A stretch of 64,000 bases of DNA. Origin: Minisyncoccota bacterium. GTDB lineage: Bacteria; Patescibacteriota; Minisyncoccia; Phycocordibacterales; UBA9973. The notes beneath the pieces are model-generated. The model was not told where the DNA came from, made no database searches, and saw only the letters and a list, made by a program, of their open reading frames with translations. How positions within the stretch are numbered: the stretch's first letter is position 1; each line of letters starts with the position of its first letter. The position numbers and the translations under genes were made by a program. This document shows positions 26,182-57,223 of the stretch, piece after piece. The stretch covers positions 114,116 to 178,115 of the forward strand of contig JBAZVG010000001.1 in NCBI GenBank assembly GCA_041661005.1, given 5' to 3'.

Positions 26182-26253
26182 CTTGTCCCGTACTAAATTT
26201 TTTGGCAAAACAAATGGTCAATATTATTAACAATTTAAAATTTTAGTACTGGG
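26182..26253 (+). repeat. 72-nt structured intergenic repeat, copy 1, abutting the start codon of the HAD gene
   Basis: Near-identical to 56549..56620. Internal inverted repeat GTACTAAATTTT...AAAATTTTAGTAC. Ends ...TACTGGG then ATG. Confidence 0.6.
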
Positions 26254-27048
26254 ATGAAAATTTCGAACTTTGAAAAACTTACAGATAAAGATTTGATTGT
26301 TTTTGACTTAGATGGAACTTTGACTGAGACTAAATCCAATTTAGAACAAGATATGTCTGAAGCGCTTACGTCCCTTCTTAAGGAAAAAAAAGTTGTTGTT
26401 ATTGGAGGCGGTAATTATAAACAGTTTAAAAAACAATTTATAAAATATCTTAAATGTCCACGTCATTTGTTGTCACGTCTTTTCCTTTTTCCTACCACAG
26501 CAACCTCTTTCTATCGTTATAGTAATGGTTGGAAAAAAGTGTATGAATTTGTGCTTTCGAAGCGTGATATAATAATGATTAGAAAAGCGTTTCGCGATGT
26601 GTTTAAAGAAATAAATTACATTCAGCCGAAAAAAGTCTACGGCAAAGTTTTAGAAGATAGAGGAACACAGTTTACATTTTCCGCGCTTGGACAAGACGTC
26701 GTCACTATACTTGGGAAAAATGCTGGTGTGCGTTTAAAAAAAGAATGGACTCGTAAAAACACTCCATTGAAATTAAAAATCGCGGCTTTAATGCAAGAGC
26801 GCCTGCCACATCTAGAAGTTCATGCTGCTGGCTTTACCTCAATTGATATAACAAAAAAAGGTGTTGATAAACAATACGGAATGAATCAGATTAAAAAATA
26901 TCTTCATATATCCATCAAAAATATGCTTTTTATTGGTGATGCTATTTTTCCTGGTGGTAATGATTATGCGGTAACCAAAACTGGTGTGGATTACATGAAG
27001 GTTAAAGGACCTAGAGAAACTAAAGCAATAATTCGCAATATCTTATAA
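26254..27048 (+). CDS. HAD-superfamily hydrolase (HAD-IIB / phosphomannomutase-like)
   Basis: FDLDGTLTETKSN motif I, C-terminal GDAIFPGGNDYAV. Confidence 0.65.
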   Translation: MKISNFEKLTDKDLIVFDLDGTLTETKSNLEQDMSEALTSLLKEKKVVVIGGGNYKQFKKQFIKYLKCPRHLLSRLFLFPTTATSFYRYSNGWKKVYEFVLSKRDIIMIRKAFRDVFKEINYIQPKKVYGKVLEDRGTQFTFSALGQDVVTILGKNAGVRLKKEWTRKNTPLKLKIAALMQERLPHLEVHAAGFTSIDITKKGVDKQYGMNQIKKYLHISIKNMLFIGDAIFPGGNDYAVTKTGVDYMKVKGPRETKAIIRNIL

Positions 27049-46417: not shown

Positions 46418-47050
46418 ATGTCAGACGAAGAAACCAAAAAACCTGAAGAAAATAAACCCCTCGAGGTTGCTCGGGACGATTCTACTGAATCGGATGATTC
46501 AGAAGTTGTGGATGTTGTCTTTAACGAAGACGGGGAGGAAGATCTCAAGAAAACTCTTAAGAAACTAAGGGAAGATTTGAAAGTATGCAAAAAAGAAAAA
46601 GAAGAATATCTAACTGGCTGGCAAAAAGAACGGGCGGAGTTTGCTAATTATAGAAAAGGGGAAGATGATCGAAAAGCTATGTTTTCAGAATCAATGCGCG
46701 AACGCATACTGACCAGATTTCTGACTGTATCGGATAGTTTCAACATGGCTTTTGCCAATAAAGAGGCGTGGGAAAAGGTAGATGAAAATTGGAGAAAAGG
46801 CGTAGAATATATTTATGGACAGATGAATACTGTGTTTGAAGAATATGGGGTAAAAGAAATAGGAGAGGTCAATGAAACATTTGATCCAAATATTCATCAG
46901 TCCATGGAAGTTACACCGACTGACAAAAAAGAAAATGACCATAAGGTCTCGACTGTAATCCAAAAGGGATACAAGCTCGGCGAACGTGTCATACGTCCGG
47001 CGAGAGTGAATGTTTATGAATACAGAGAAGAACATAAGTCTGAAAAATAA
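46418..47050 (+). CDS. grpE: nucleotide exchange factor GrpE
   Basis: WQKERAEFANYRKG (like the GrpE QAEFENYRKR segment). C-terminal FDPNIHQSMEV...QKGYKLGERVIRPARVNV. Confidence 0.8.
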   Translation: MSDEETKKPEENKPLEVARDDSTESDDSEVVDVVFNEDGEEDLKKTLKKLREDLKVCKKEKEEYLTGWQKERAEFANYRKGEDDRKAMFSESMRERILTRFLTVSDSFNMAFANKEAWEKVDENWRKGVEYIYGQMNTVFEEYGVKEIGEVNETFDPNIHQSMEVTPTDKKENDHKVSTVIQKGYKLGERVIRPARVNVYEYREEHKSEK

Positions 47051-48689
47051 TATCTGTGAGCATTGCAAACAGAATTTCTCGATAGGAGAAGGAGAATTTT
47101 CTTTATATCAAAAAGTTGGCATCGAATTGCCGACTTTGTGCTTTTTCTGTCGAATAAAATTACATTTTTCTTTTTGGTATTTCGGAAAATTTAGGAAAAG
47201 TAAATCAGATCTTTCGGGGGAAAGTTTGATTACTGTTTTGCCGGAAAAAAATAAATATCCTATATATACTTTAAATGAATGGCATGGTGATAAGTGGAAT
47301 CCGATGGATTACGGAATGGATTACAATCCAGACACTTCGTTTTTAGAACAAATTCAAAATTTACAGGAAAAAGTCCCTCATCCTCACCAAAATGGATCTA
47401 AAAATACAAACTGTGATTATTGCGATGATGTTTGGAATTCTAAAAATTGCTATTTATCTCGCTCGATGGAGAAATGTGAAGATTTGTTTTATTCATACCG
47501 TAATTTAGGAGTTAAGAATTCCATAGATATGAATGTTTGTTTTGATTCAGAAAAATGCTATGACTGCGGAGACTGCCACCATTCATACAAACTTTTTTAC
47601 TCAAGACACTCACGAGATTGCATAGATTCAAGTTTTTTATACGACTGTCGTAATTGCCAAAATTGTTTTATGTCTTGGAATCTTCGAAATAAACAGTACT
47701 GTATAGAAAACAAGCAATATACTAAAGAAGAATATGAAGAAAAACTAAAATCATATAATCTAGAATCCTATAAATCAATTCAGTTTTTTAAAAAACGTTT
47801 TGAAGAAATAGCACAGAAAGAAGTAGTTCATAGGCAAAATTTCAATTTTAAAAATTACAATTCAGACGGAAATTATCTTTTTGATACGAAAAATTGTCAC
47901 AATTGTAATACAGTCAATGAATCCGAAGATTGTCGAAATTGCGTGAGAGGAATTAGTGAAAAATCTAATATTGATGCGAATGGCGTTTGGTATTCTGAAT
48001 TGGCGGGCAATTGCGTTGGCTGTGTTAATGCCTACGCTATTAAATACAGCATGTGGTCTTCCTCTCGTTATTCTGAATATTTAGATTTATGTATTGAATG
48101 CGAATATTGCTTTGGTTGCGTCGGCTTAAAGAAAAAGAAATATTGTATTCTAAACAAGCAATATGACAAACAAGAATATGAAACTCTGAAAAATAAAATC
48201 ATTGGAGATATGAAAAATAGCGGAGAATACGGCAAGTTTCTGCCTTATTCTATGAGCGCCGGACCTTTTAATTTTTCTACCAGTTTTCTTTATTTTCCGG
48301 AAACCAAAAAAGAAGATATCTTAAAACTCGGCGGTTATTGGGAGGATGTTAACGAAAGTCATATAGACGGAATGCTTACAAGTGAACTGCCTGATGATAT
48401 AAAAGATGTACCAGATATCATTATCACTCAAGCGCTTATTTGTCCGGAAACTGGCTGGCGGTTTAATATTGCTCAAAATGAGCTTATTTTTTACAAGGAA
48501 AACAATATTCCACTTCCACGATATCATTTTGATGTTCGCACAAAAAATAGTTTAAAATATTTAACTATTTTGCAATCCTATCCATATATCTGTTTCTATT
48601 GCAAGAAAGATATAGAAGCATATTATTTACCGGAGTGGGGATATGAGAAAATTGCCTGCGAAGAATGTTATAAACAAAATATAGCTTGA
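47010..48689 (+). CDS. cysteine-rich repeat protein, paralog 1 of 4 (559 aa), with N- and C-terminal zinc-ribbon modules
   Basis: N-terminal CEHCKQNFSI...LCFFCR. Many CxxCxxC(F/V)GC repeats. C-terminal NELIFYKENNIPLPR..C..CK. The start overlaps grpE's end in another frame, so the true start is uncertain. Confidence 0.7.
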   Translation: MFMNTEKNISLKNNICEHCKQNFSIGEGEFSLYQKVGIELPTLCFFCRIKLHFSFWYFGKFRKSKSDLSGESLITVLPEKNKYPIYTLNEWHGDKWNPMDYGMDYNPDTSFLEQIQNLQEKVPHPHQNGSKNTNCDYCDDVWNSKNCYLSRSMEKCEDLFYSYRNLGVKNSIDMNVCFDSEKCYDCGDCHHSYKLFYSRHSRDCIDSSFLYDCRNCQNCFMSWNLRNKQYCIENKQYTKEEYEEKLKSYNLESYKSIQFFKKRFEEIAQKEVVHRQNFNFKNYNSDGNYLFDTKNCHNCNTVNESEDCRNCVRGISEKSNIDANGVWYSELAGNCVGCVNAYAIKYSMWSSSRYSEYLDLCIECEYCFGCVGLKKKKYCILNKQYDKQEYETLKNKIIGDMKNSGEYGKFLPYSMSAGPFNFSTSFLYFPETKKEDILKLGGYWEDVNESHIDGMLTSELPDDIKDVPDIIITQALICPETGWRFNIAQNELIFYKENNIPLPRYHFDVRTKNSLKYLTILQSYPYICFYCKKDIEAYYLPEWGYEKIACEECYKQNIA

Positions 48690-48749
48690 GGATTTTAATT
48701 TATACCTGCCCGCAATGCTACGCATAGCGTTGCAGGCGGGTGAAAAAAT

Positions 48750-50465
48750 ATGAACAAAGACTGTAAGAATTGTAAGACAACTTTTGAAATAACCAATGAA
48801 GATATGGGTTTTTACGAACGTATTAAAGTTCCACCGCCGACGTGGTGTCCGATATGTCGCCAACTTCGTCGTTATGCATGGAGGAACGAACGAGTTTTGT
48901 ATAGACGAAATTGCGACCTTTGCGGGAAGAGCACAGTGACCATTTATTCTCCGAACAAGCCATACAAAGTTTACTGCGTAGATTGCTGGTGGGGAGATGA
49001 TTGGGATTTTTCTTCATACGGACGGGATTTTGATTTTTCCCGATCTTTTTTTGAGCAATTTGCTGAATTACAGCGTGAAGTGCCTCGCATGGCGTTCTTG
49101 AACAAGAGAAGCGTTAATTCTGAATACACAAACCATTCTGGAGATAATAAGAATGTTTATCTTTCTTTTACAACTTTTTACAGCGAGAATGTTATGTATA
49201 GCACTTGGATAAGGACGTCGCAAGATTGTATGGATTGCAGTTTTATTTATGATAAAGGGGAACGTCTGTATGAAACGATGGATTCTCGTTATTCGTATCA
49301 ATGTCAATATGGGATCTTTTTAAAAGATTGTTCAACTTGTTATTATTGTTATGATTGTCATGGGTGCAATGAATGTTTTATGTCTTCGAATTTACGCAAC
49401 AAAAGTTATGTTTTTAAAAATAAACAATACTCTCGTGAAGAATATCTAAAAAAGAAAAAAGAATATGAATTATGTTCTTTTGTGACGAGAGAAGGATTGA
49501 ATAAAGAATTTAAAGATTTATTGGAACAAAGCGCTATTCATCGTTATGTTGTCAGCGAAAGGAGTATTAATTCCAGTGGATCTTTGCTCTATGATTGCAA
49601 AAACGTCATTGATTCTTTTGAGATGGATAGAAGCGAGGATTGTAAATATGTCTATGGAGGTATTGAAACAAAAGATTGCATGGATCTATATCATGTGGGT
49701 TGGAATACAGAACTTTGTTACGAGTGTCATGGATGTACGCGTCTTTCCAACTGTCAATTTTGTCACTTATGTTATGACGGTATGAATATTTTTTATTCCG
49801 ATACTTGTCAGAATAGTCAAAATCTTTTTGGCTGTGTAAGCGTGAAAAAAGGCGAGTATATGATTTTCAATAAAAAATATAATAAAACTGATTATGAAGT
49901 TTTGAAAGCAAAAATTATTGAACATATGAAAAAGACGGGGGAATATGGAGAATTCTTTCCACCAGAAATCGCTCCGGTGTATTACAATGAGACACAAGGT
50001 AACCTCTATATGCCTATGAAAAAAGAAGAAATTTTAGCAAAAGGCTGGCATTGGGAAGACAATATCCCCGGAACTTTTGGCAAGGAGACAATCTCAAGTG
50101 CAGATATTCCCGACAGAATAGAAGATGTGCCAGATAGTTATTTGACTGAAATTTTTTCTTGTATGGATTGCTCTAAAAATTACAACATAACCCAAAATGA
50201 GCTTATTTTTTATAGGAAAGAAAATATTCCATTTCCAAGACGATGTCCAAATTGTCGTTATGGAAGAAGATTTGACCTCCGACCGATGAGAAAACTTTGG
50301 CACCGTAAATGTATGTGTGACCCGACTTCGCAAAGCTCTGACGGGCGTGGTAAAAATCACTTTCATGGAGAGAAAAAATGTGAAGTTGAATTTGACACCT
50401 GTTATGCGCCGGATAGGTCGGAAAAAGTGTACTGTGAGACCTGTTATAACAAAGAAGTTTATTAA
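48750..50465 (+). CDS. cysteine-rich repeat protein, paralog 2 (571 aa)
   Basis: CKNCKTTFEITNEDMGFYERIKVPPPTWCPICR. Central CYYCYDCHGCNEC. C-terminal NELIFYRKENIPFPRRCPNCR...VYCETCYNKEVY. Confidence 0.8.
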   Translation: MNKDCKNCKTTFEITNEDMGFYERIKVPPPTWCPICRQLRRYAWRNERVLYRRNCDLCGKSTVTIYSPNKPYKVYCVDCWWGDDWDFSSYGRDFDFSRSFFEQFAELQREVPRMAFLNKRSVNSEYTNHSGDNKNVYLSFTTFYSENVMYSTWIRTSQDCMDCSFIYDKGERLYETMDSRYSYQCQYGIFLKDCSTCYYCYDCHGCNECFMSSNLRNKSYVFKNKQYSREEYLKKKKEYELCSFVTREGLNKEFKDLLEQSAIHRYVVSERSINSSGSLLYDCKNVIDSFEMDRSEDCKYVYGGIETKDCMDLYHVGWNTELCYECHGCTRLSNCQFCHLCYDGMNIFYSDTCQNSQNLFGCVSVKKGEYMIFNKKYNKTDYEVLKAKIIEHMKKTGEYGEFFPPEIAPVYYNETQGNLYMPMKKEEILAKGWHWEDNIPGTFGKETISSADIPDRIEDVPDSYLTEIFSCMDCSKNYNITQNELIFYRKENIPFPRRCPNCRYGRRFDLRPMRKLWHRKCMCDPTSQSSDGRGKNHFHGEKKCEVEFDTCYAPDRSEKVYCETCYNKEVY

Positions 50466-50517
50466 AATGTTTACTTTATCCAACTAAATTACTTTACTTA
50501 ACTAAAGTAGACAAAAA

Positions 50518-52284
50518 ATGGAATATAAGAATGAAAATAGAATATGTCAAAATTGCAAGAAAGACTTCACCATCGAGCCGGAGGATTTTAATTTTTACGA
50601 AAAGATGAAAGTTCCTCCACCGACTTTTTGTCCACTTTGTCGGGCAGAAAGAAGAGCGACTTTTAGAAATGAGAGAAAACTTTTTAAGGTCAAGGATGTC
50701 TTGACCGGGAGAGGTATCTTCTCACTTTTTCCTGATGAGGCTGGAAACAAATCTACCACGGAGGAAGAGTGGTTCAGTGATAATTTTGATGCTATGGAGT
50801 ATGCTCGGGATTATGATTTTTCAAAAAACTTCTTTGAACAACTGTTTGAATTAAAAAAAGAAGTGCCGGTTTTTTCTTTGAGGGTAGAATTTATGGTGAA
50901 TAGTCCATATAGCGCAAATGCGACTGCTCTTAAAAACTGCTACCTATGTTTTAATTCTAATACTTCTGAAGATTGCATGTATGGTAATGCCACTGATTTT
51001 AGCAAAGATTGTATCGACAATTCTCATATCAGTCAATCGGAGCGATGTTATGAATGTTTTTGGTTGAGACATTGTTACCAATGTTATTTTACAATAATGT
51101 GTGGAGATTCACATAATATGTGGTTTTCTCGAGATTGTCATGGGTGTAATGATTGTTTTGGGTGTATAAATTTAACAAAAGCGTCGTATTGTATTTTTAA
51201 CAAGAAATATTCTAAAGAGGATTATCAAAATAAAATTGCAAAGATGGGCTTAAATACAATTTCTGGATTAAAAAAGGCGCGAGAAAAGTCCAGAATTTTT
51301 TGGCAGAGTCATATAAGACGATATCAACAAGGTACAAAAAATTTAAACTCAACTGGTTCGTATGTAACAGATTGCAAAAATGTGAATGACAGTTTTTTAA
51401 TACGAGAAGGGGAAAATATGAAATACTGCCAGTATTTACAAGTTCCGAGAAACAAAGATTGTTATGATGCTTTTGCTTGGGGAGCAAACATGGAAATGCA
51501 TTATGAGACTTGTCTTTCTGGTGGAAATACTTTCAATATGAAATTTTGCGATAATTGTTGGCCAAATTGTAGAAACCTTGAGTATTGTGCGCACATGTTC
51601 AGTTCTTCTGATTGTTTTGGTTGTGTTGGATTAAAGAAAAAACAATATTGTATTTTCAACAAGCAGTATGAAAAAGAAAAATATTTTGAGATGGTTGAAA
51701 AAATAAAAAAACACATGGATGAAGTACCCTATTATGATAAAAAAGGCAATATGTATAAATATGGGGAATTTTTCCCGATCGAACATTCACAATTTGGATA
51801 TAATAATTCGACCGCTATTCAGTATTTTTCAATGACAAAAGAGAAAGCAAAAGAAAACGGTTATTTATGGATTGATGTTCCTCGTGGTGAATATAAAATT
51901 ACAAAAAAAGCATCAGAACTTGTGGAATCAATTGACGGAGTTACTGATCAAATTTTAAAAGAAGTTGTCGAATGTGAAAATTGTAAAAATCCGTATCGTA
52001 TTTTAGAAAACGAATTTATATTTTACAAAAAAGAGAATCTTCCACTTCCGACAATGTGTCATGAATGTAGATTTGAGAGAAGAATCGCGGATAGACTGAA
52101 ATTTGAATTATATGAAAGATCTTGCATGTGTACTGGGAAAACTGATAACACTGGAATTTATGAAAATACTACAAAGCATATTCATGGTAATGAACTCTGT
52201 GGGGAAGAATTTAAAACAGGATATTCTCCCGACCGCCCAGAAATAGTTTACTGCGAGAAATGTTATCAGCAGGAGGTTTACTAA
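50518..52284 (+). CDS. cysteine-rich repeat protein, paralog 3 (588 aa)
   Basis: MEYKNENRICQNCKKDFTIEPEDFNFYEKMKVPPPTFCP... ends SPDRPEIVYCEKCYQQEVY. Confidence 0.8.
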   Translation: MEYKNENRICQNCKKDFTIEPEDFNFYEKMKVPPPTFCPLCRAERRATFRNERKLFKVKDVLTGRGIFSLFPDEAGNKSTTEEEWFSDNFDAMEYARDYDFSKNFFEQLFELKKEVPVFSLRVEFMVNSPYSANATALKNCYLCFNSNTSEDCMYGNATDFSKDCIDNSHISQSERCYECFWLRHCYQCYFTIMCGDSHNMWFSRDCHGCNDCFGCINLTKASYCIFNKKYSKEDYQNKIAKMGLNTISGLKKAREKSRIFWQSHIRRYQQGTKNLNSTGSYVTDCKNVNDSFLIREGENMKYCQYLQVPRNKDCYDAFAWGANMEMHYETCLSGGNTFNMKFCDNCWPNCRNLEYCAHMFSSSDCFGCVGLKKKQYCIFNKQYEKEKYFEMVEKIKKHMDEVPYYDKKGNMYKYGEFFPIEHSQFGYNNSTAIQYFSMTKEKAKENGYLWIDVPRGEYKITKKASELVESIDGVTDQILKEVVECENCKNPYRILENEFIFYKKENLPLPTMCHECRFERRIADRLKFELYERSCMCTGKTDNTGIYENTTKHIHGNELCGEEFKTGYSPDRPEIVYCEKCYQQEVY

Positions 52285-52336
52285 AATGTTTACTTTATCC
52301 AACTAAATTACTTTACTTAACTAAAGTAGATAAAAA

Positions 52337-54094
52337 ATGGAATATAAGAATGAAAATAGAATATGTCAAAACTGCAAGAAAGATTTCACCATCGAGCCGG
52401 AGGATTTTAATTTTTACGAAAAGATGAAAGTTCCTCCACCGACTTTTTGTCCGGAGTGCAGATTGCAACGCAGAATGGTCTGGCGTAATGATTGGCACTT
52501 ATTTAAGAAAAAAGATGCACGAACAGGTGAAGAGATTTTCTCCTTTTTACCCGAAGAAAGTCCTGCAAAAATTTATGACAGGGATTACTGGATTTCTGAC
52601 GCCTGGGATCCTATGAAACATGGTCGTGATTATAATTTTTCTAGACCATTTTTTGAGCAATTTAAAGAATTACTCTATGAAGTGCCCCTTCCAGCTCATT
52701 CCATGTTTGATATAGTTAATTGTCAGTATTGTACTAATGCTAATAATATTAAAGGCTGTTATCTGGTTCGAGGAGCTTCTTTTACAGAAGATTCCGCTTA
52801 TCTTATTTGGGATCAGGAATCAAAGCAATGTCTTGATAGTCATATGACTAATAAATGTGAATTGAGTTATGGAAATGTTGACACTTCCACTTGTTATAGA
52901 ACTTTTTTCTCAGTTGATTGTGAAAGTTCTCAAGAATTAATTTTATGTAAAGATTGTGTAGGATGTAATAGTTGCATCGCTTCAATTAGTTTACGAAATA
53001 AATCGTATTGTATTTTTAATGTTCAATATACGAGAGAAGAATATTTAGAAAAATTGAAATCTTTTCACCTAGGTTCAGACAAAGCTTTTCAGAATTTTAA
53101 AAATAAAGCATATAAACATTGGTTGAAATATCCGCAGAAGTTTATTCATAGTCGTCAGAATGTAAATGTTTCCGGAGATTATATTTATGAATCCAAAAAT
53201 GCCCGTGGTTGTTATAGGGTAAGGGAATTAGAAGACTGTAAGTTTGTACAGAATATTTTGATTGGTCCAGCTAAAGATTGTTATGACTATGCGAATTTTG
53301 GCGACAATGCAGAACTTATTTATGAATCGTTAATTGTTGGAAGGGGAGTATCTAATGTCAAATTCTCCACTCAAGCAGTTTCTAATATAAAAAATCTCAC
53401 ATATTGCGTTTTTTGTTTTCCTTCGAATTCAGATTTGTTTGGTTGTGTTTCTTTGCGTAATAAACAGTATTGTATTTTTAATAAACAATACACAAAAGAG
53501 GAATACGAAAAACTTATTCCAAAAATTATTAAACACATGAGTGAAATGCCATTTATTGATAAAAATGGGAGGGTCTATAAATATGGAGAATACTTTCCAA
53601 GTGAATTAACCTATCTTCCTTATAGAGCAACTGCTTCTTATGAATGGTTTCCATTGGATGAGCAAGAGGCAAAGGAAAAAGGATTTTTGTGGTATGAAAC
53701 CGCAAAACAAAATCATAAAATTACTTTAAAAAATAAAGACATTCCAGATGATATTAAAGATGTTGATGAAAGTATCCTTAACCAAATCATTGAATGTGTC
53801 CACCAAGAATCTTGCGAGCATGAATGTACCGGCGCTTTTCGGGTAATCAAAATGGAATTTGATTTTTTGAAGAGAATGAATATTCCATTACCTCGTCTAT
53901 GCACAAATTGTCGTCATTATGAACGTCTTGTGCTTAGGAATCCGCCGAGGTTTTATAATCGAGAGTGTATGTGTAATAAAAACAACCATACACATCATCA
54001 AGGAAAATGCACTACAGAATTTGAAACTTCATATGCTCCAGATAGGCCAGAAATAGTCTACTGCGAGAAATGCTACCAGCAGGAGGTTTATTAG
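52337..54094 (+). CDS. cysteine-rich repeat protein, paralog 4 (585 aa)
   Basis: First 39 aa and last 19 aa identical to paralog 3. Central region diverged. Confidence 0.8.
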   Translation: MEYKNENRICQNCKKDFTIEPEDFNFYEKMKVPPPTFCPECRLQRRMVWRNDWHLFKKKDARTGEEIFSFLPEESPAKIYDRDYWISDAWDPMKHGRDYNFSRPFFEQFKELLYEVPLPAHSMFDIVNCQYCTNANNIKGCYLVRGASFTEDSAYLIWDQESKQCLDSHMTNKCELSYGNVDTSTCYRTFFSVDCESSQELILCKDCVGCNSCIASISLRNKSYCIFNVQYTREEYLEKLKSFHLGSDKAFQNFKNKAYKHWLKYPQKFIHSRQNVNVSGDYIYESKNARGCYRVRELEDCKFVQNILIGPAKDCYDYANFGDNAELIYESLIVGRGVSNVKFSTQAVSNIKNLTYCVFCFPSNSDLFGCVSLRNKQYCIFNKQYTKEEYEKLIPKIIKHMSEMPFIDKNGRVYKYGEYFPSELTYLPYRATASYEWFPLDEQEAKEKGFLWYETAKQNHKITLKNKDIPDDIKDVDESILNQIIECVHQESCEHECTGAFRVIKMEFDFLKRMNIPLPRLCTNCRHYERLVLRNPPRFYNRECMCNKNNHTHHQGKCTTEFETSYAPDRPEIVYCEKCYQQEVY

Positions 54095-54096
54095 TG

Positions 54097-55146
54097 TTAT
54101 TCTTCGATTTTTGGTTTTTCTATTTCAAGCAAGGAAAGTTCTGGCGAAGAGCCGGCGATGCGGAGGACGTCTTTATCTATTTTCTTTAATTCTTTATTTG
54201 AAGCATTGTAATGATTCACAACGGTGCCTAAAGCGTTTCCTAATTTGTTGTGGTATTCGTCATAAGATTTTAGGTGCTTACCCAAGTCTTCTACCTTTTT
54301 TATTATTTCTTTTGCGGATTCCTCTATTTTTAAGGCTTTGAGTCCCTGTAGAACAGTCTGTAAATATGCCAAAAATGAAGTGGGGGAAGTGATGATAACT
54401 TTATATTTTCCAGCCGCGCGTTGAATTAGATTTTCCGCATTTTCTTCAGTGGAACCTACTTTGTTCGTTAGAAGATCATAATAAATAGCTTCGTGGGGGA
54501 TAAACATGAAAGCGAAATCCGTCGTGCCCTTTGTTGGTTGGATGTATTTGGCGGTTTCCGTGATTCTATTTTTCAAGTCATTTACGAAAATAGTTTCTAA
54601 TCTCTTTTTTTCTGCGACATCTCTTTCTTCCACCATTTTATTATAATTCTCCAGCGAAAATTTTGAATCTATCGGAATGATTTTGTCTTTTACAAAAACG
54701 ACAGCATCTACAATAGTCCCGTCAGGAAAAGGATACTGCATTTGATAACTTCCGGGTGGTAAGACATTTTTTAAAACTGTTTCCAGATAATATTCGCCCA
54801 GTATTCCGCGTTGTTTTGGATTTTTCAAAATATTTTCCAAGCTTTGCAATTGGTCGGCGAAAGAAATGACTTGCTTGTTTGTCTCATCCAGTCTAGTAAG
54901 CCTTTCCGTCACATCGCGAATTATTTTATTTGATTCAGAGGAGTGAAATTGCAGGCTTTCTCGCACTTGTTTGTGAGATTCCCCGATCTTGCTGTCCACT
55001 GTTCTTGAGAGTTCGTTTATCTGAGTTAAAATAAGATTCAGTCCAGTATTATCTTTGCTTTCACTTTCTTTTTTCCTGTTAAGTAAAAAATAAATGACGA
55101 TACCCCCTATCAAAATCACGATTATGATTGTTAAGATATTTTCCAT
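54097..55146 (-). CDS. rmuC: DNA recombination protein RmuC family
   Basis: N-terminal TM helix, coiled coil, and the FAFMFIPHEAIYYDLL motif typical of RmuC. Confidence 0.7.
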   Translation of the reverse strand: MENILTIIIVILIGGIVIYFLLNRKKESESKDNTGLNLILTQINELSRTVDSKIGESHKQVRESLQFHSSESNKIIRDVTERLTRLDETNKQVISFADQLQSLENILKNPKQRGILGEYYLETVLKNVLPPGSYQMQYPFPDGTIVDAVVFVKDKIIPIDSKFSLENYNKMVEERDVAEKKRLETIFVNDLKNRITETAKYIQPTKGTTDFAFMFIPHEAIYYDLLTNKVGSTEENAENLIQRAAGKYKVIITSPTSFLAYLQTVLQGLKALKIEESAKEIIKKVEDLGKHLKSYDEYHNKLGNALGTVVNHYNASNKELKKIDKDVLRIAGSSPELSLLEIEKPKIEE

Positions 55147-55158
55147 GCTTTTATTTTA

Positions 55159-55938
55159 TCATGATTTCCCTAAATAGTGTTTCAATGTATAAATCCAATC
55201 TTCGTCTATCTGATCGCTCTCGAGTTTTTGAGCGAGAAGCCATTCTAGATAACCCCTGTCTACTTTTGCTACGTCTTCTATTTTTTTGCTATTGTGTTTG
55301 CCGAAGCCAAAAGTTCGCAAGAGAGAAGGATGTGAGGAAATTTCCACCATTTTTTCTATTGCTTCGTCTTCCCTAAACGCCTCACTAGAGGCGTCGGGCG
55401 ATCCGACTTTGTCGGATTTAGCCTCTTCTATAATTTTTTTCTTTAGTCTTTCATATAGTTTTTCTAAAACTAAAACATCTCCCATGGCATCATGTGCCGT
55501 TGCGTCTATTTCTATTTCTAACAGATATCGTAAGTATTGCAGATTGTATTTTTCCATTTTTCCTTCTTTATCCAAATGTCTAGCGAGTCTGAGCGTGCAG
55601 ATAAATCTCTTCGGTTCGATACCTTCCTTTTTTATCATAATCAAATCAAAAGGCGCATTGTGAGCCACAACGATAGAGTTTTTATCTTCGAAAAGTTTCT
55701 TTATTTTTTCCAAATCGCCACTTTCATGAAAAGATGGTTTATCAACCACCATTTTGTTTGAAATATGATGCACGGCGGAAGCTTCTGGGGGTATTTTAAT
55801 CGGGGGCTTGTAAAGCCCGACAAAACTTTCATCCTCTGCCCCGCCTGTGGCGGGGTAAATCTTATAAGCAATCTGGCAAAGAAAATCTTTTTCCGTATTG
55901 CCTGTGGTTTCCGTATCAAAAAATATTATCTTTGTCAT
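55159..55938 (-). CDS. DEDD-family 3'-5' exonuclease (DnaQ/epsilon-like) with a C-terminal extension
   Basis: IIFFDTETTG (Exo I), VVAHNAPFD (Exo II), ATAHDAMGD (Exo III-like). Confidence 0.75.
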   Translation of the reverse strand: MTKIIFFDTETTGNTEKDFLCQIAYKIYPATGGAEDESFVGLYKPPIKIPPEASAVHHISNKMVVDKPSFHESGDLEKIKKLFEDKNSIVVAHNAPFDLIMIKKEGIEPKRFICTLRLARHLDKEGKMEKYNLQYLRYLLEIEIDATAHDAMGDVLVLEKLYERLKKKIIEEAKSDKVGSPDASSEAFREDEAIEKMVEISSHPSLLRTFGFGKHNSKKIEDVAKVDRGYLEWLLAQKLESDQIDEDWIYTLKHYLGKS

Positions 55939-56548: not shown

Positions 56549-56620
56549 CTTGTCCTGTACTAAATTTTTGAGTGAAACAAATGACCATAATTATTAACAA
56601 TTTAAAATTTTAGTACTGGG
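56549..56620 (+). repeat. 72-nt structured intergenic repeat, copy 2, abutting the start codon of the DedA-like gene
   Basis: CTTGTCCTGTACTAAATTTTTGAGTGAAACAAATGACCATAATTATTAACAATTTAAAATTTTAGTACTGGG, then ATG. Confidence 0.6.
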
Positions 56621-57223
56621 ATGCATACAGTTAATCTTTTAACCAGCTTAGTTGAGAATCATCAGATCTTGGCGTATGCGGTTATTTTTTTAGGACTTAT
56701 TTTCGAAGGTGAGTTTATTGTCATTTCTGTCGGGATTTTGGCGCATCTCGGCGCTTTAAATTTTTGGTTTTCTTTCCTTTTTATTATTCTGGGCGCGATG
56801 TCTAAAACTTTTTTAGGATATGCATTAGGGGAATTTTTGTTTAAAAAATTTAACCATCATAGATTTTTTCAGTACATTCAAAAACGGGTATACAATACTT
56901 TACCTAAATTCAAAATCAAACCCTTTTGGTCAGTTTTTGTTTCCAATTTCATAGTGGGAGTGAATTATTTGGTGGTTATATTTTGCGGTTATGAAAAGAT
57001 AGATTATAAAAAATTTTTAAAAGCGGAGATTTTGGGTAAAATGATTTGGGCTCCGTCTTTGTTGTTTCTAGGATATTTTTTTGGATACACTGCGTTTCAT
57101 ATCAGTCGTGAAATCTGGAAATTTTCGATGGTGATTGTAATTCTTTTCGTATTATTTATCTTTTTTGACAAATTAATCAGCTGGGCGTATGGTATTTTTG
57201 AAGAATTTTATGACAAAGACTAA
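56621..57223 (+). CDS. DedA/VTT-family membrane protein
   Basis: Multiple TM helices, GYALGEFL-type motif. Assignment is tentative. Confidence 0.5.
   Translation: MHTVNLLTSLVENHQILAYAVIFLGLIFEGEFIVISVGILAHLGALNFWFSFLFIILGAMSKTFLGYALGEFLFKKFNHHRFFQYIQKRVYNTLPKFKIKPFWSVFVSNFIVGVNYLVVIFCGYEKIDYKKFLKAEILGKMIWAPSLLFLGYFFGYTAFHISREIWKFSMVIVILFVLFIFFDKLISWAYGIFEEFYDKD

What the first reader, a model, noticed from the sequence alone, without database searches (positions are those of the whole stretch)
50463..52459. Gene-conversion block: about 175 nt (intergenic plus the first 39 codons) nearly identical between paralogs 3 and 4, and identical C-termini
The sequence AATGTTTACTTTATCCAACTAAATTACTTTACTTAACTAAAGTAGA(C/T)AAAAAATGGAATATAAGAATG...CCACCGACTTTTTGTCC is almost base-identical at 50463..50640 and 52282..52459. 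The last 19 residues (SPDRPEIVYCEKCYQQEVY) are also identical, while the central roughly 500 codons differ substantially. This is the signature of recent recombination or gene conversion at the cassette boundaries, or strong selection on the 5' UTR/N-terminus. The array is therefore actively evolving.
Basis: seen in the sequence. Interest (0 to 1): 0.5.

Follow-up and report, generated by a model that had tools for sequence, protein, structure and literature searches.

The report
Gene-conversion tract between tandem paralogs
Two neighbouring but otherwise very different copies of an uncharacterised cysteine-rich gene in a Paceibacteria (CPR) genome share a 177-base near-identical stretch (spacer plus first 39 codons) because one copy's start region was recently pasted over the other's; this is an ordinary kind of recombination, though it recurs at the same spot throughout this gene family.

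Summary
The 5' observation is real. Window 50457-50633 and 52276-52452 are 177 nt with 4 mismatches, covering the last 3 codons of the upstream gene, a 52-nt spacer and codons 1-39 of paralogs P3 and P4. The rest of P3 and P4 is only 38% identical in protein. Silent sites and the non-coding spacer are homogenised. The same sites vary freely between genomes, so this is recent gene conversion, not selection (permutation P=1e-4). The "identical C-termini" are a different thing: 18 (not 19) identical residues, 84% nucleotide identity and background silent-site divergence. That motif is conserved in both orthologue groups, so it reflects purifying selection. The conversion is not a one-off. At least eight related Paceibacteria loci show the same junction homogenisation, and tract ends cluster at codon 39/40, where family-wide nucleotide homology stops. 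Near-identical strains of the sister species also differ by a swapped N-terminal module. P4 was probably the donor and P3 the recipient. The converted spacer carries a palindrome (TACTTTA-N6-TAAAGTA) that elsewhere lies between promoter and start codon of TrpR/YerC-like genes and upstream of purine genes, so it is probably an operator. The protein family (>6000 members, no Pfam family, no PDB fold match) remains of unknown function. Overall: a known process, newly documented in this family.

The parts
50457..50633 (+). Copy A of the homogenised tract: last 3 codons of P2 plus stop, the 52-nt spacer (50466-50517), and codons 1-39 of P3. Probable recipient copy.
   Evidence: 177 nt with 4 mismatches to copy B. 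The leader and spacer are of the P4/g5 type, unlike those of P3 orthologues.
52276..52452 (+). Copy B of the tract: last 3 codons of P3 plus stop, the 52-nt spacer (52285-52336), and codons 1-39 of P4. Probable donor copy.
   Evidence: A spacer with the same palindrome and an (M/V)EYKxENxI leader precedes the P4 orthologue in the syntenic sister species.
47010..48689 (+). Paralog P1 (559 aa as ORF; the true start may be a few codons later). First member of the array, directly after grpE. Not involved in the conversion.
   Evidence: 81% identical to g1 of the sister species.
48750..50465 (+). Paralog P2 (571 aa). Only its last 3 codons lie in the tract.
   Evidence: 75% identical to g2 of the sister species. 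Its N-terminal block is 63% identical to that of P3 and P4.
50518..52284 (+). Paralog P3 (588 aa). Its body belongs to an orthologue group found in many Paceibacteria (up to 81% aa identity), but not at this position in the sister species.
52337..54094 (+). Paralog P4 (585 aa). The sister species has an 89% identical orthologue at the corresponding array position.
50490..50509 (.). Perfect palindrome TACTTTA-CTTAAC-TAAAGTA, preceded by an overlapping degenerate copy at 50472-50491. Probable operator, carried inside the converted tract.
   Evidence: 4 sites in the window, 0.7 expected. Contexts in 84 metagenome contigs.
52309..52328 (.). Second copy of the same palindrome, with a degenerate copy at 52291-52310.
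52228..52284 (+). C-terminal 18 codons plus stop of P3 (PDRPEIVYCEKCYQQEVY). Identical in protein to P4 54038-54094 but only about 84% identical in DNA. A conserved family motif, not part of the recent tract.
   Evidence: (D4).
48703..48742 (+). GC-rich hairpin in the P1-P2 spacer. A different kind of intergenic element; shown for contrast with the P2-P3 and P3-P4 spacers.
   Evidence: -26.9 kcal/mol, z -4.95. Its 37-nt core recurs in other genomes.

Best explanation
A short non-reciprocal homologous recombination event (gene conversion) copied one gene junction of the tandem array onto the neighbouring junction. The copied segment is about 177 nt: the end of the upstream gene, the spacer and codons 1-39 of the downstream gene. 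The most likely direction is from the junction in front of P4 onto the junction in front of P3. The tract is bounded on both sides by the only stretches conserved in DNA across the family. On the left this is the ...EVY-stop end of the preceding gene. On the right it is the N-terminal zinc-finger block, which ends at codon 39/40. Heteroduplex formation and resolution are presumably confined to that frame. As a result P3 now carries P4's spacer, including a palindromic probable operator, together with P4's start context and N-terminal half-finger, while keeping its own anciently diverged body.

Shown here: the tract, its silent-site and non-coding identity, its recurrence in the family, and the clustering of tract ends. 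Inferred: the recombination mechanism, the direction, and any regulatory consequence.
For: - Tract: 177 nt with 4 mismatches, flanked by sequence whose protein identity is 38%.
- Silent and non-coding sites are homogenised: 36/39 third positions against a 60% background, and the spacer is 51/52 identical.
- These sites are not constrained. Between genomes, silent sites of the block are 51-55% identical and sequence upstream of the leader is 29-43% identical. The spacer has no general conservation.
- Phylogenetic incongruence: the P4 body is 85% identical in DNA to its orthologue in L080-L085. The block is 97-98% identical to P3 in the same genome but only 73/90 identical to that orthologue.
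- Permutation test P=1e-4 for P3-P4 only.
- Recurrence: the 90-nt block is >=88% identical in 9 of 163 within-locus pairs against 0 of 1418 between-locus pairs. Tracts running into non-conserved upstream DNA occur in L031, L035, L001, L045 (three pairs), L002, L028 and others. Right ends cluster at +85 to +91 nt from the first Cys codon, exactly where family-wide DNA identity drops from 63-80% to about 52%.
- Strain level: P4 orthologues that are 100% identical from nt 546 onward differ by 17% in nt 32-119 and by a 79-nt insertion carrying a new leader.
- Direction: the closest P3 orthologues have an unrelated spacer and a 7-residue leader (12-14/27 nt identity). P4 and g5 of the sister species have the palindrome spacer and an (M/V)EYKxENxI leader (22-24/27).
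Against: - There is only one assembly of this genome: a single 813-kb MAG contig. No reads were available, so the two copies have not been verified independently.
- The direction is not proven. Some P3 orthologues elsewhere also have MEYK leaders. The window's junction resembles the sister species' g4->g5 junction at least as well as its g3->g4 junction, which implies earlier exchanges among junctions.
- The left flank (P2 against P3 C-terminal coding DNA) is only about 68% identical, which is poor homology for RecA-type pairing. The initiating homology may have been the N-terminal block alone.
- No recombination genes were linked to the event. The RmuC and ExoX-like genes next to the array are not conserved neighbours.
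Confidence: 0.8

Rival explanations
1. Cassette movement by Campbell-type recombination. A circle carrying a junction plus the P3 body was excised by recombination between two junction repeats and then integrated by a single crossover into the junction in front of P4. This duplicated the junction in the same event that brought P3 to this position.
For: - P3 has no orthologue at this array position in the syntenic sister species, which carries a different paralog there.
- Array composition is variable across genomes.
- Junction repeats exist in many arrays, and direct repeats flanking a gene are what such an event leaves behind.
Against: - It requires P3 to have been flanked already by junctions nearly identical to P4's, yet P3 orthologues elsewhere have unrelated leaders and spacers.
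- It also needs a separate loss of the paralog present in the sister species.
- It does not explain tracts between non-adjacent genes in other loci (L051, L045).
Confidence: 0.1
2. No recombination. The spacer and the first 39 codons are kept identical by strong purifying selection on a regulatory DNA or RNA element and on the N-terminal peptide.
For: - The N-terminal zinc-finger block is the most conserved part of the protein, about 75% aa identity between any two members.
- The spacer holds a conserved palindrome.
Against: - Between genomes, silent third positions of the block are only 51-55% identical, and sequence upstream of the leader only 29-43%.
- Only 20 of the 52 spacer bases belong to the conserved palindrome.
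- Other genomes have homogenised tracts with entirely different spacer sequences (L031, L001).
- There is no Rfam match and no significant RNA structure.
Confidence: 0.03
3. Assembly artefact. The MAG assembler or polisher imposed one copy's sequence on the other, or built a chimera of strains.
For: - A single MAG assembly.
- Metagenome assemblies of related strains often break in or near this region: several cluster members are N-terminally truncated partial proteins.
Against: - The copies differ at 4 positions, and both reading frames are intact with orthologue-specific sequence resuming exactly after codon 39.
- If the true copies differed by the usual 15-25%, they would share no long k-mers to confuse an assembler.
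- The same phenomenon is seen in at least eight independent assemblies from other projects. The N-terminal variant of the sister strain is reproduced identically in four independent assemblies, L082-L085.
Confidence: 0.05
4. A dedicated site-specific cassette system, integron-like or shufflon-like, that uses the spacer palindrome as its recombination site.
For: - Same-orientation ORFs are separated by imperfect palindromes or hairpins.
- The central 6-nt spacer of the palindrome is inverted between the window and one junction of the sister species.
Against: - The tract extends 117 nt into the coding region and ends where homology ends, not at the palindrome.
- All array members are homologous full-length genes.
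- No recombinase flanks the array; the neighbours are grpE upstream and RmuC and an exonuclease downstream.
- The same palindrome sits in promoter-to-ATG positions of unrelated single genes.
Confidence: 0.02

Closest known systems
Concerted evolution by gene conversion between bacterial paralogs, e.g. Helicobacter pylori babA/babB/babC outer-membrane genes or Salmonella tufA/tufB (from general knowledge, not tested here)
   Same: - Short non-reciprocal tracts homogenise parts of paralogs in one genome, silent sites included.
- As in the bab genes, the gene ends are homogenised while the middle stays divergent.
- Paralogs look more alike within a genome than orthologues do between genomes, but only inside the tract.
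   Different: - The paralogs here are anciently diverged (38% aa in the body) and each has conserved orthologues, so this is not antigenic or phase variation.
- The tract spans a gene junction (3' end, spacer, 5' end) in a head-to-tail array.
- Its right end is fixed by the limit of family-wide homology inside a zinc finger.
- The host is a CPR/Patescibacteria lineage, for which full-text searches found no report of such tracts.
Silent-cassette antigenic variation systems (Neisseria pilE/pilS, Borrelia vlsE), from general knowledge
   Same: A tandem array of related sequences with conserved ends, and gene conversion between members.
   Different: - All four members are complete ORFs with start codons.
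- The centres are not hypervariable; they are conserved with orthologues at 75-89% aa.
- The conserved ends are what is exchanged, not the variable centres.
- The proteins lack the hallmarks looked for: no signal-peptide-like N-terminus, since the N-terminus is a zinc finger.
Integron gene-cassette arrays with attC sites, from general knowledge
   Same: Co-oriented ORFs separated by imperfect palindromes.
   Different: - No integrase is adjacent.
- The members are homologous to one another.
- The tract boundary lies inside the ORF.
- The palindrome also occurs in ordinary promoter regions of single genes.
Treble-clef zinc fingers (Pfam zf_Tbcl PF13451 / zf_Tbcl_2 PF23477) for the N-terminal module
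   Same: - A CxxC-x24-CxxC spacing.
- The AlphaFold model shows a beta-hairpin knuckle plus the start of a helix.
- Weak Pfam hits (E 0.026 and 0.0011).
   Different: - The scores are below Pfam's gathering thresholds (14.9 against 24 bits; 19.1 against 27).
- The rest of the ~585-aa protein (a Cys-rich solenoid-like core and further C-terminal zinc ribbons) matches no Pfam, NCBIfam or PADLOC family and no PDB fold.
Autoregulated TrpR-family (YerC/YecD-like) repressor operators, for the spacer palindrome
   Same: - A 7-6-7 palindrome lies between a sigma-70-type promoter (TTGACA-17-TATACT) and the ATG of PF01371 genes in about 20 distinct metagenome contexts, in either orientation.
- This is the classic layout of an autoregulatory operator.
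   Different: - Binding was not tested.
- No TrpR-like gene lies in the window.
- In the window no promoter of at least 9/12 matches precedes the palindrome on the + strand.

Membership tests
Gene-conversion tract / concerted evolution between paralogs | A delimited tract of much higher identity than its flanks, with silent and non-coding sites included | tested here: met
   177 nt at 97.7% identity against 38% aa identity in the body. Third positions are 36/39 identical against a 60% background, and the spacer is 51/52 identical.
Gene-conversion tract / concerted evolution between paralogs | Phylogenetic incongruence: the tract groups paralogs within a genome, while the rest of the gene groups orthologues across genomes | tested here: met
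   The P4 body is 85% identical in DNA and 89% in protein to L080-L085 g4. The block is 96.7% identical to P3 but 73/90 identical to g4.
Gene-conversion tract / concerted evolution between paralogs | Statistical excess of the run length over permuted polymorphic sites (Sawyer-type test) | tested here: met
   Longest run 43 sites, P=1e-4 for P3-P4. The other five pairs have runs of only 7-9 sites; one (P1-P2) is nominally significant at P=0.036, two others fall at P=0.05-0.06. Empirical null from 13,216 between-genome pairs: 99th percentile 85.6%.
Gene-conversion tract / concerted evolution between paralogs | The identity is not explained by sequence constraint | tested here: met
   Between genomes, silent sites of the block are 51-55% identical, upstream DNA is 29-43% identical, and the spacer is not conserved.
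Gene-conversion tract / concerted evolution between paralogs | Both copies are verified on single molecules or reads, i.e. not an assembly artefact | not testable with these tools
   There is one MAG assembly only and no read data. Indirect support comes from independent assemblies of relatives that show the same phenomenon.
Silent-cassette antigenic variation locus | One expressed gene plus truncated or promoterless silent cassettes, with hypervariable centres | tested here: not met
   There are four full-length ORFs with start codons. The centres are conserved with orthologues at 75-89% aa.
Integron cassette array | An adjacent IntI-type integrase, unrelated cassettes, and recombination breakpoints at attC | tested here: not met
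   The checked neighbours are GrpE, RmuC and an ExoX-like exonuclease. The members are homologous. The breakpoint lies inside the ORF at codon 39/40. The rest of the window was not scanned for integrases.
Pfam treble-clef zinc finger (PF13451 / PF23477) | A score at or above Pfam's gathering threshold | tested here: not met
   Best scores are 19.1 bits (cut-off 27) for P2 and 14.9 bits (cut-off 24) for P4. The predicted structure is compatible with a treble clef.
TrpR/YerC-type operator (for the palindrome) | A palindrome located between the promoter and the start codon of the regulator's own gene and of other regulon genes | tested here: met
   About 20 distinct contexts lie next to PF01371 genes with TTGACA-17-TATACT upstream. 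Others lie upstream of purD, purH, purQ-like and SpoU-methylase genes and about 14 family genes.
TrpR/YerC-type operator (for the palindrome) | The regulator binds the site, and the regulator is present in this genome | not testable with these tools
   No homologue lies in the 64-kb window. The rest of the 813-kb genome was not available, and binding needs an experiment.

The most novel reading that the evidence does not exclude
The converted segment may not be just any stretch of homology. It may be a portable 'front-end module': a palindromic operator of a TrpR/YerC-like regulator, an ME(Y/H)K start context (possibly with an antisense promoter built from the Cys-Gln and Glu-Tyr-Lys codons), and the first half of a zinc finger. 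Gene conversion would repeatedly transplant this module between paralogs, and between strains, of a CPR-specific Cys-rich protein family. That would rewire which paralogs belong to a regulon that also contains purine-biosynthesis genes.
Probability: 0.15. Interest if true: 0.55.

Novelty: new member of a known kind. Interest (0 to 1): 0.35.

Why it matters
- Homologous recombination between diverged tandem paralogs appears to be active in ultra-small Patescibacteria genomes. It leaves a reproducible footprint, with tract ends set by the limit of family-wide DNA homology.
- For annotators and evolutionary analyses, N-terminal sequences, start codons and upstream regions of this large family (>6000 proteins) cannot be used to infer orthology, and MAG assemblies will tend to break there.
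- The two 177-nt direct repeats should make P3 prone to deletion.
- As a by-product, the tract points to a conserved palindromic operator that links these unknown-function proteins to a TrpR/YerC-like regulator and to purine genes. This is a testable handle on the function of a major CPR-specific protein family.

Tried and rejected
- **RNA element in the spacer or block:** there is no Rfam hit. The spacer fold is weak, -8.9 kcal/mol with z -1.9.
- **C-terminal conversion:** rejected on silent-site and between-genome controls.
- **Closer strains of the window genome:** exact-protein look-ups failed for P3 and P4 in the contig index. Neither the genome-contig scan nor the metagenome scan with the palindrome returned any contig more than 86% identical to the window array. 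Copy-number or deletion variants could therefore not be examined.
- **Donor of the L082-type N-terminal module:** not found within the fetched loci.
- **Literature:** full-text searches found nothing on this family, on gene conversion in Patescibacteria, or on YerC and purine regulation.
- **Integron-like and antigenic-variation readings:** considered and rejected; see the membership tests.
Full report
**Context.** The window comes from a Candidatus Paceibacterota (Patescibacteria/CPR) MAG, on a single 813,355-bp contig with locus tags WC735_00995 to _01005. After rpoA, rplQ, rplM, rpsI and grpE come four co-oriented paralogs:
- P1, 47010-48689
- P2, 48750-50465
- P3, 50518-52284
- P4, 52337-54094

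They encode Cys-rich proteins of about 560-590 aa that are 30-44% identical to each other. No Pfam, NCBIfam or PADLOC family reaches threshold. Homologues number in the thousands, almost all in Paceibacteria/Nomurabacteria MAGs and all annotated as hypothetical.

**The observation.** At an offset of 1819 nt, 50463-50633 and 52282-52452 differ at 3 of 171 positions. The maximal tract is 50457-50633 / 52276-52452, 177 nt with 4 mismatches. It covers the last three codons and stop of the upstream gene, the whole 52-nt spacer (51/52 identical) and codons 1-39 of P3 and P4. Identity collapses at codon 40, where each gene resumes the signature of its own orthologue group: LCRAERR in P3 and ECRLQRR in P4.

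In the 39 codons, 36 third positions are identical, against about 60% at same-amino-acid codons in the remaining 519 aligned codons. Those remaining codons are 38% identical in protein. A Sawyer-type permutation of polymorphic sites gives a run of 43 sites (P=1e-4) for P3-P4. No other pair has a run longer than 9 sites.

**The C-terminus is a different matter.** Eighteen residues are identical, not 19. DNA identity is 84% and third-position identity is 11/17, which is background. Both orthologue groups end in ...PDRPEIVYCEKCYQQEVY in dozens of genomes. Among between-genome pairs with >=18/19 identical residues, 19% are at least as similar in DNA. This is purifying selection on a zinc-ribbon motif, not recent conversion.

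**Constraint versus copying.** I extracted 171 family genes from 79 related genome loci plus the window, anchored on the invariant CxxC-x24-CxxC motif. Between genomes, DNA identity varies along the gene as follows:
- 63-80% from the first Cys codon to +90 nt
- about 52% after +90 nt
- 29-43% upstream of the leader

Silent third positions in the block are only 51-55% identical between genomes. The block is therefore conserved as protein, not as DNA, and the spacer is not conserved at all. The window's P3-P4 pair is 96.7% identical over the 90-nt block, whereas the 99th percentile of 13,216 between-genome pairs is 85.6%. Selection cannot explain the identity. Recent copying can.

**Recurrence.** Self-comparison of the related loci finds the same kind of tract in many independent assemblies. 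One example is L031: 171 nt at 97%, covering a completely different spacer plus 39 codons, with the same right boundary after PPPTFCP. Other examples are L035, L001, L002, L045 (three junctions), L021, L028, L036 and L051.
- The 90-nt block is >=88% identical in 9 of 163 within-locus pairs with diverged bodies, against 0 of 1418 between-locus pairs.
- Right ends cluster at +85 to +91 nt, i.e. codon 39/40. This lies between the third and fourth Cys ligands of the N-terminal zinc finger and is exactly where family-wide DNA homology stops.
- Left ends run into the non-conserved spacer. In arrays with very short spacers they reach the conserved C-terminal coding end of the preceding gene (L045).
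- Similar tracts at 3' ends plus downstream spacers exist as well (L001, L061, L073, L078).

The unit being homogenised is therefore the gene junction, framed by the two conserved gene ends.

**Strain and species comparisons.** The closest syntenic relatives (L080-L085) have grpE followed by g1 (P1 orthologue, 81%), g2 (P2, 75%), g3 (a different paralog, 43% to P3), g4 (P4, 89%) and g5 (another paralog), then a paaX-like gene and dnaK. P3 therefore has no positional orthologue there. The window also lacks g5 and dnaK and carries RmuC and an ExoX-like exonuclease instead.

Within the 90%-identity cluster of P4, proteins with virtually identical bodies carry three or four different N-terminal 40-residue modules. 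At the DNA level, L080 and L082 are 100% identical from nt 546 of g4 onward. They differ by 17% in nt 32-119. L082 also has a 79-nt insertion, flanked by TATGTCA, that brings a GC-rich hairpin and a new leader. That module recurs at about 80% identity in front of different paralogs in other genomes. The L082 variant is reproduced in four independent assemblies.

**Direction.** The closest P3 orthologues have unrelated spacers and 7-residue leaders (12-14/27 nt identity to the window leader). P4 and g5 of the sister species have the same palindrome-bearing spacer and an (M/V)EYKxENxI leader (22-24/27). This favours P4 as donor and P3 as recipient, at about 60% confidence. The window's junction resembles the sister species' g4->g5 junction (about 85%, with a two-site spacer) as much as its g3->g4 junction. 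Earlier exchanges among junctions are therefore likely.

**What the tract carries.** The spacer consists of a degenerate and a perfect copy of the palindrome TACTTTA-N6-TAAAGTA (50472, 50490; 52291, 52309). That is 4 sites in the window against 0.7 expected. The exact 20-mer occurs in 84 metagenome contigs, in these contexts:
- In about 20 distinct contexts it lies between a TTGACA-17-TATACT promoter and the ATG of a ~107-aa Trp-repressor-family (YerC-like) gene, in either orientation.
- About 14 sites precede family genes, often as the entire spacer with a GTG start overlapping the palindrome.
- Others precede purD, purH, a purQ-like amidotransferase and a SpoU methylase.

Palindrome-associated family genes preferentially have ME(Y/H)K leaders: 9/14 plus the window, against 17/165 otherwise. 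I infer, but did not show, that the palindrome is an operator of the TrpR-like protein and that the conversion gave P3 the same control region as P4. There is no Rfam family and no convincing RNA structure in the block.

**Verdict.** The 5' observation is real and is best explained by a recent short gene-conversion event between adjacent paralogs (confidence 0.8). Rivals are Campbell-type cassette insertion through junction repeats (0.1), assembly artefact (0.05), constraint (0.03) and a site-specific cassette system (0.02). The process is of a known kind; comparable cases, from general knowledge, are the bab genes of H. pylori and tufA/tufB. What is new is its documentation in a large CPR-specific family, the reproducible tract boundary inside a zinc finger, and the operator lead. 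Literature searches found no prior description.

Noticed in passing
window 50490-50509 and 52309-52328; loci L086-L165: The spacer palindrome TTACTTTACTTAACTAAAGT is an exact 20-mer in 84 metagenome contigs. It lies between a sigma-70-type promoter and the ATG of TrpR/YerC-like genes (PF01371), and upstream of purD, purH, purQ-like and SpoU-methylase genes and of family genes. It looks like the operator of an undescribed Paceibacteria regulon.
   Followed up: partly
window 50550..50522 and 52369..52341 (minus strand): A near-consensus antisense promoter-like site, TTGACA-17-TATATT (11/12), lies inside the converted block. Its -35 is built from the conserved Cys-Gln codons and its -10 from the Glu-Tyr-Lys leader codons. 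The palindrome follows 12 nt downstream on that strand. These were the only 11/12 matches in 8 kb. It could be chance in AT-rich DNA.
   Followed up: partly
window 26182-26256 and 56549-56623: A 75-nt intergenic repeat (88% identical) contains a long inverted repeat, CC(C/T)GTACTAAATTTT...AAAATTTTAGTACTGGG. It ends exactly at the ATG of two unrelated genes. There is no Rfam match.
   Followed up: no
window 48703-48742 (P1-P2 spacer): A strong GC-rich hairpin (-26.9 kcal/mol, z -4.95). Its 37-nt core is 100% identical in another genome (L010) and 92% identical in L073, L099, L125 and L165. It appears to be a dispersed REP-like hairpin element in Paceibacteria.
   Followed up: partly
L082 7931-8003 (also L083-L085); L031 9934-10000 and 12626-12677; L027, L003, L020, L071: A second conserved 'front-end module' is about 80% identical across genomes and sits in front of different paralogs. 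It consists of the hairpin CCnCGAACGAAAGCnAAGCTTCnTACGGGG, an A-rich stretch, and an ATG-(E/K)YKSQNVVCQNC leader. In L082 it was inserted at a TATGTCA microhomology, leaving the old leader as a non-coding remnant.
   Followed up: partly
window 46418-55938; L080 and L082: In the sister species the paralog array sits inside the grpE-dnaK heat-shock gene neighbourhood: grpE, five paralogs, a paaX-like gene, then dnaK. In the window, synteny breaks right after P4. RmuC (54097-55146, minus strand) and an ExoX-like exonuclease (55159-55938, minus strand) follow, and there is no dnaK anywhere in the 64 kb.
   Followed up: partly
window 47010-54094 (all four paralogs): The protein family is very large: more than 6000 database proteins at E<1e-100. 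Each protein contains an internal duplication; the motif ..C.GC..L..K.YCIFNKQY.KEEY occurs twice per protein (families D1 and D3). The family has no Pfam family and no PDB fold match despite a confident model.
   Followed up: partly
window 47010-47050: The P1 ORF as listed overlaps the end of grpE by 41 nt, and this exact 559-aa product is not in the protein collection. The annotated start is probably a downstream ATG. The sister-species orthologue starts MKKPENKICEHC.
   Followed up: no
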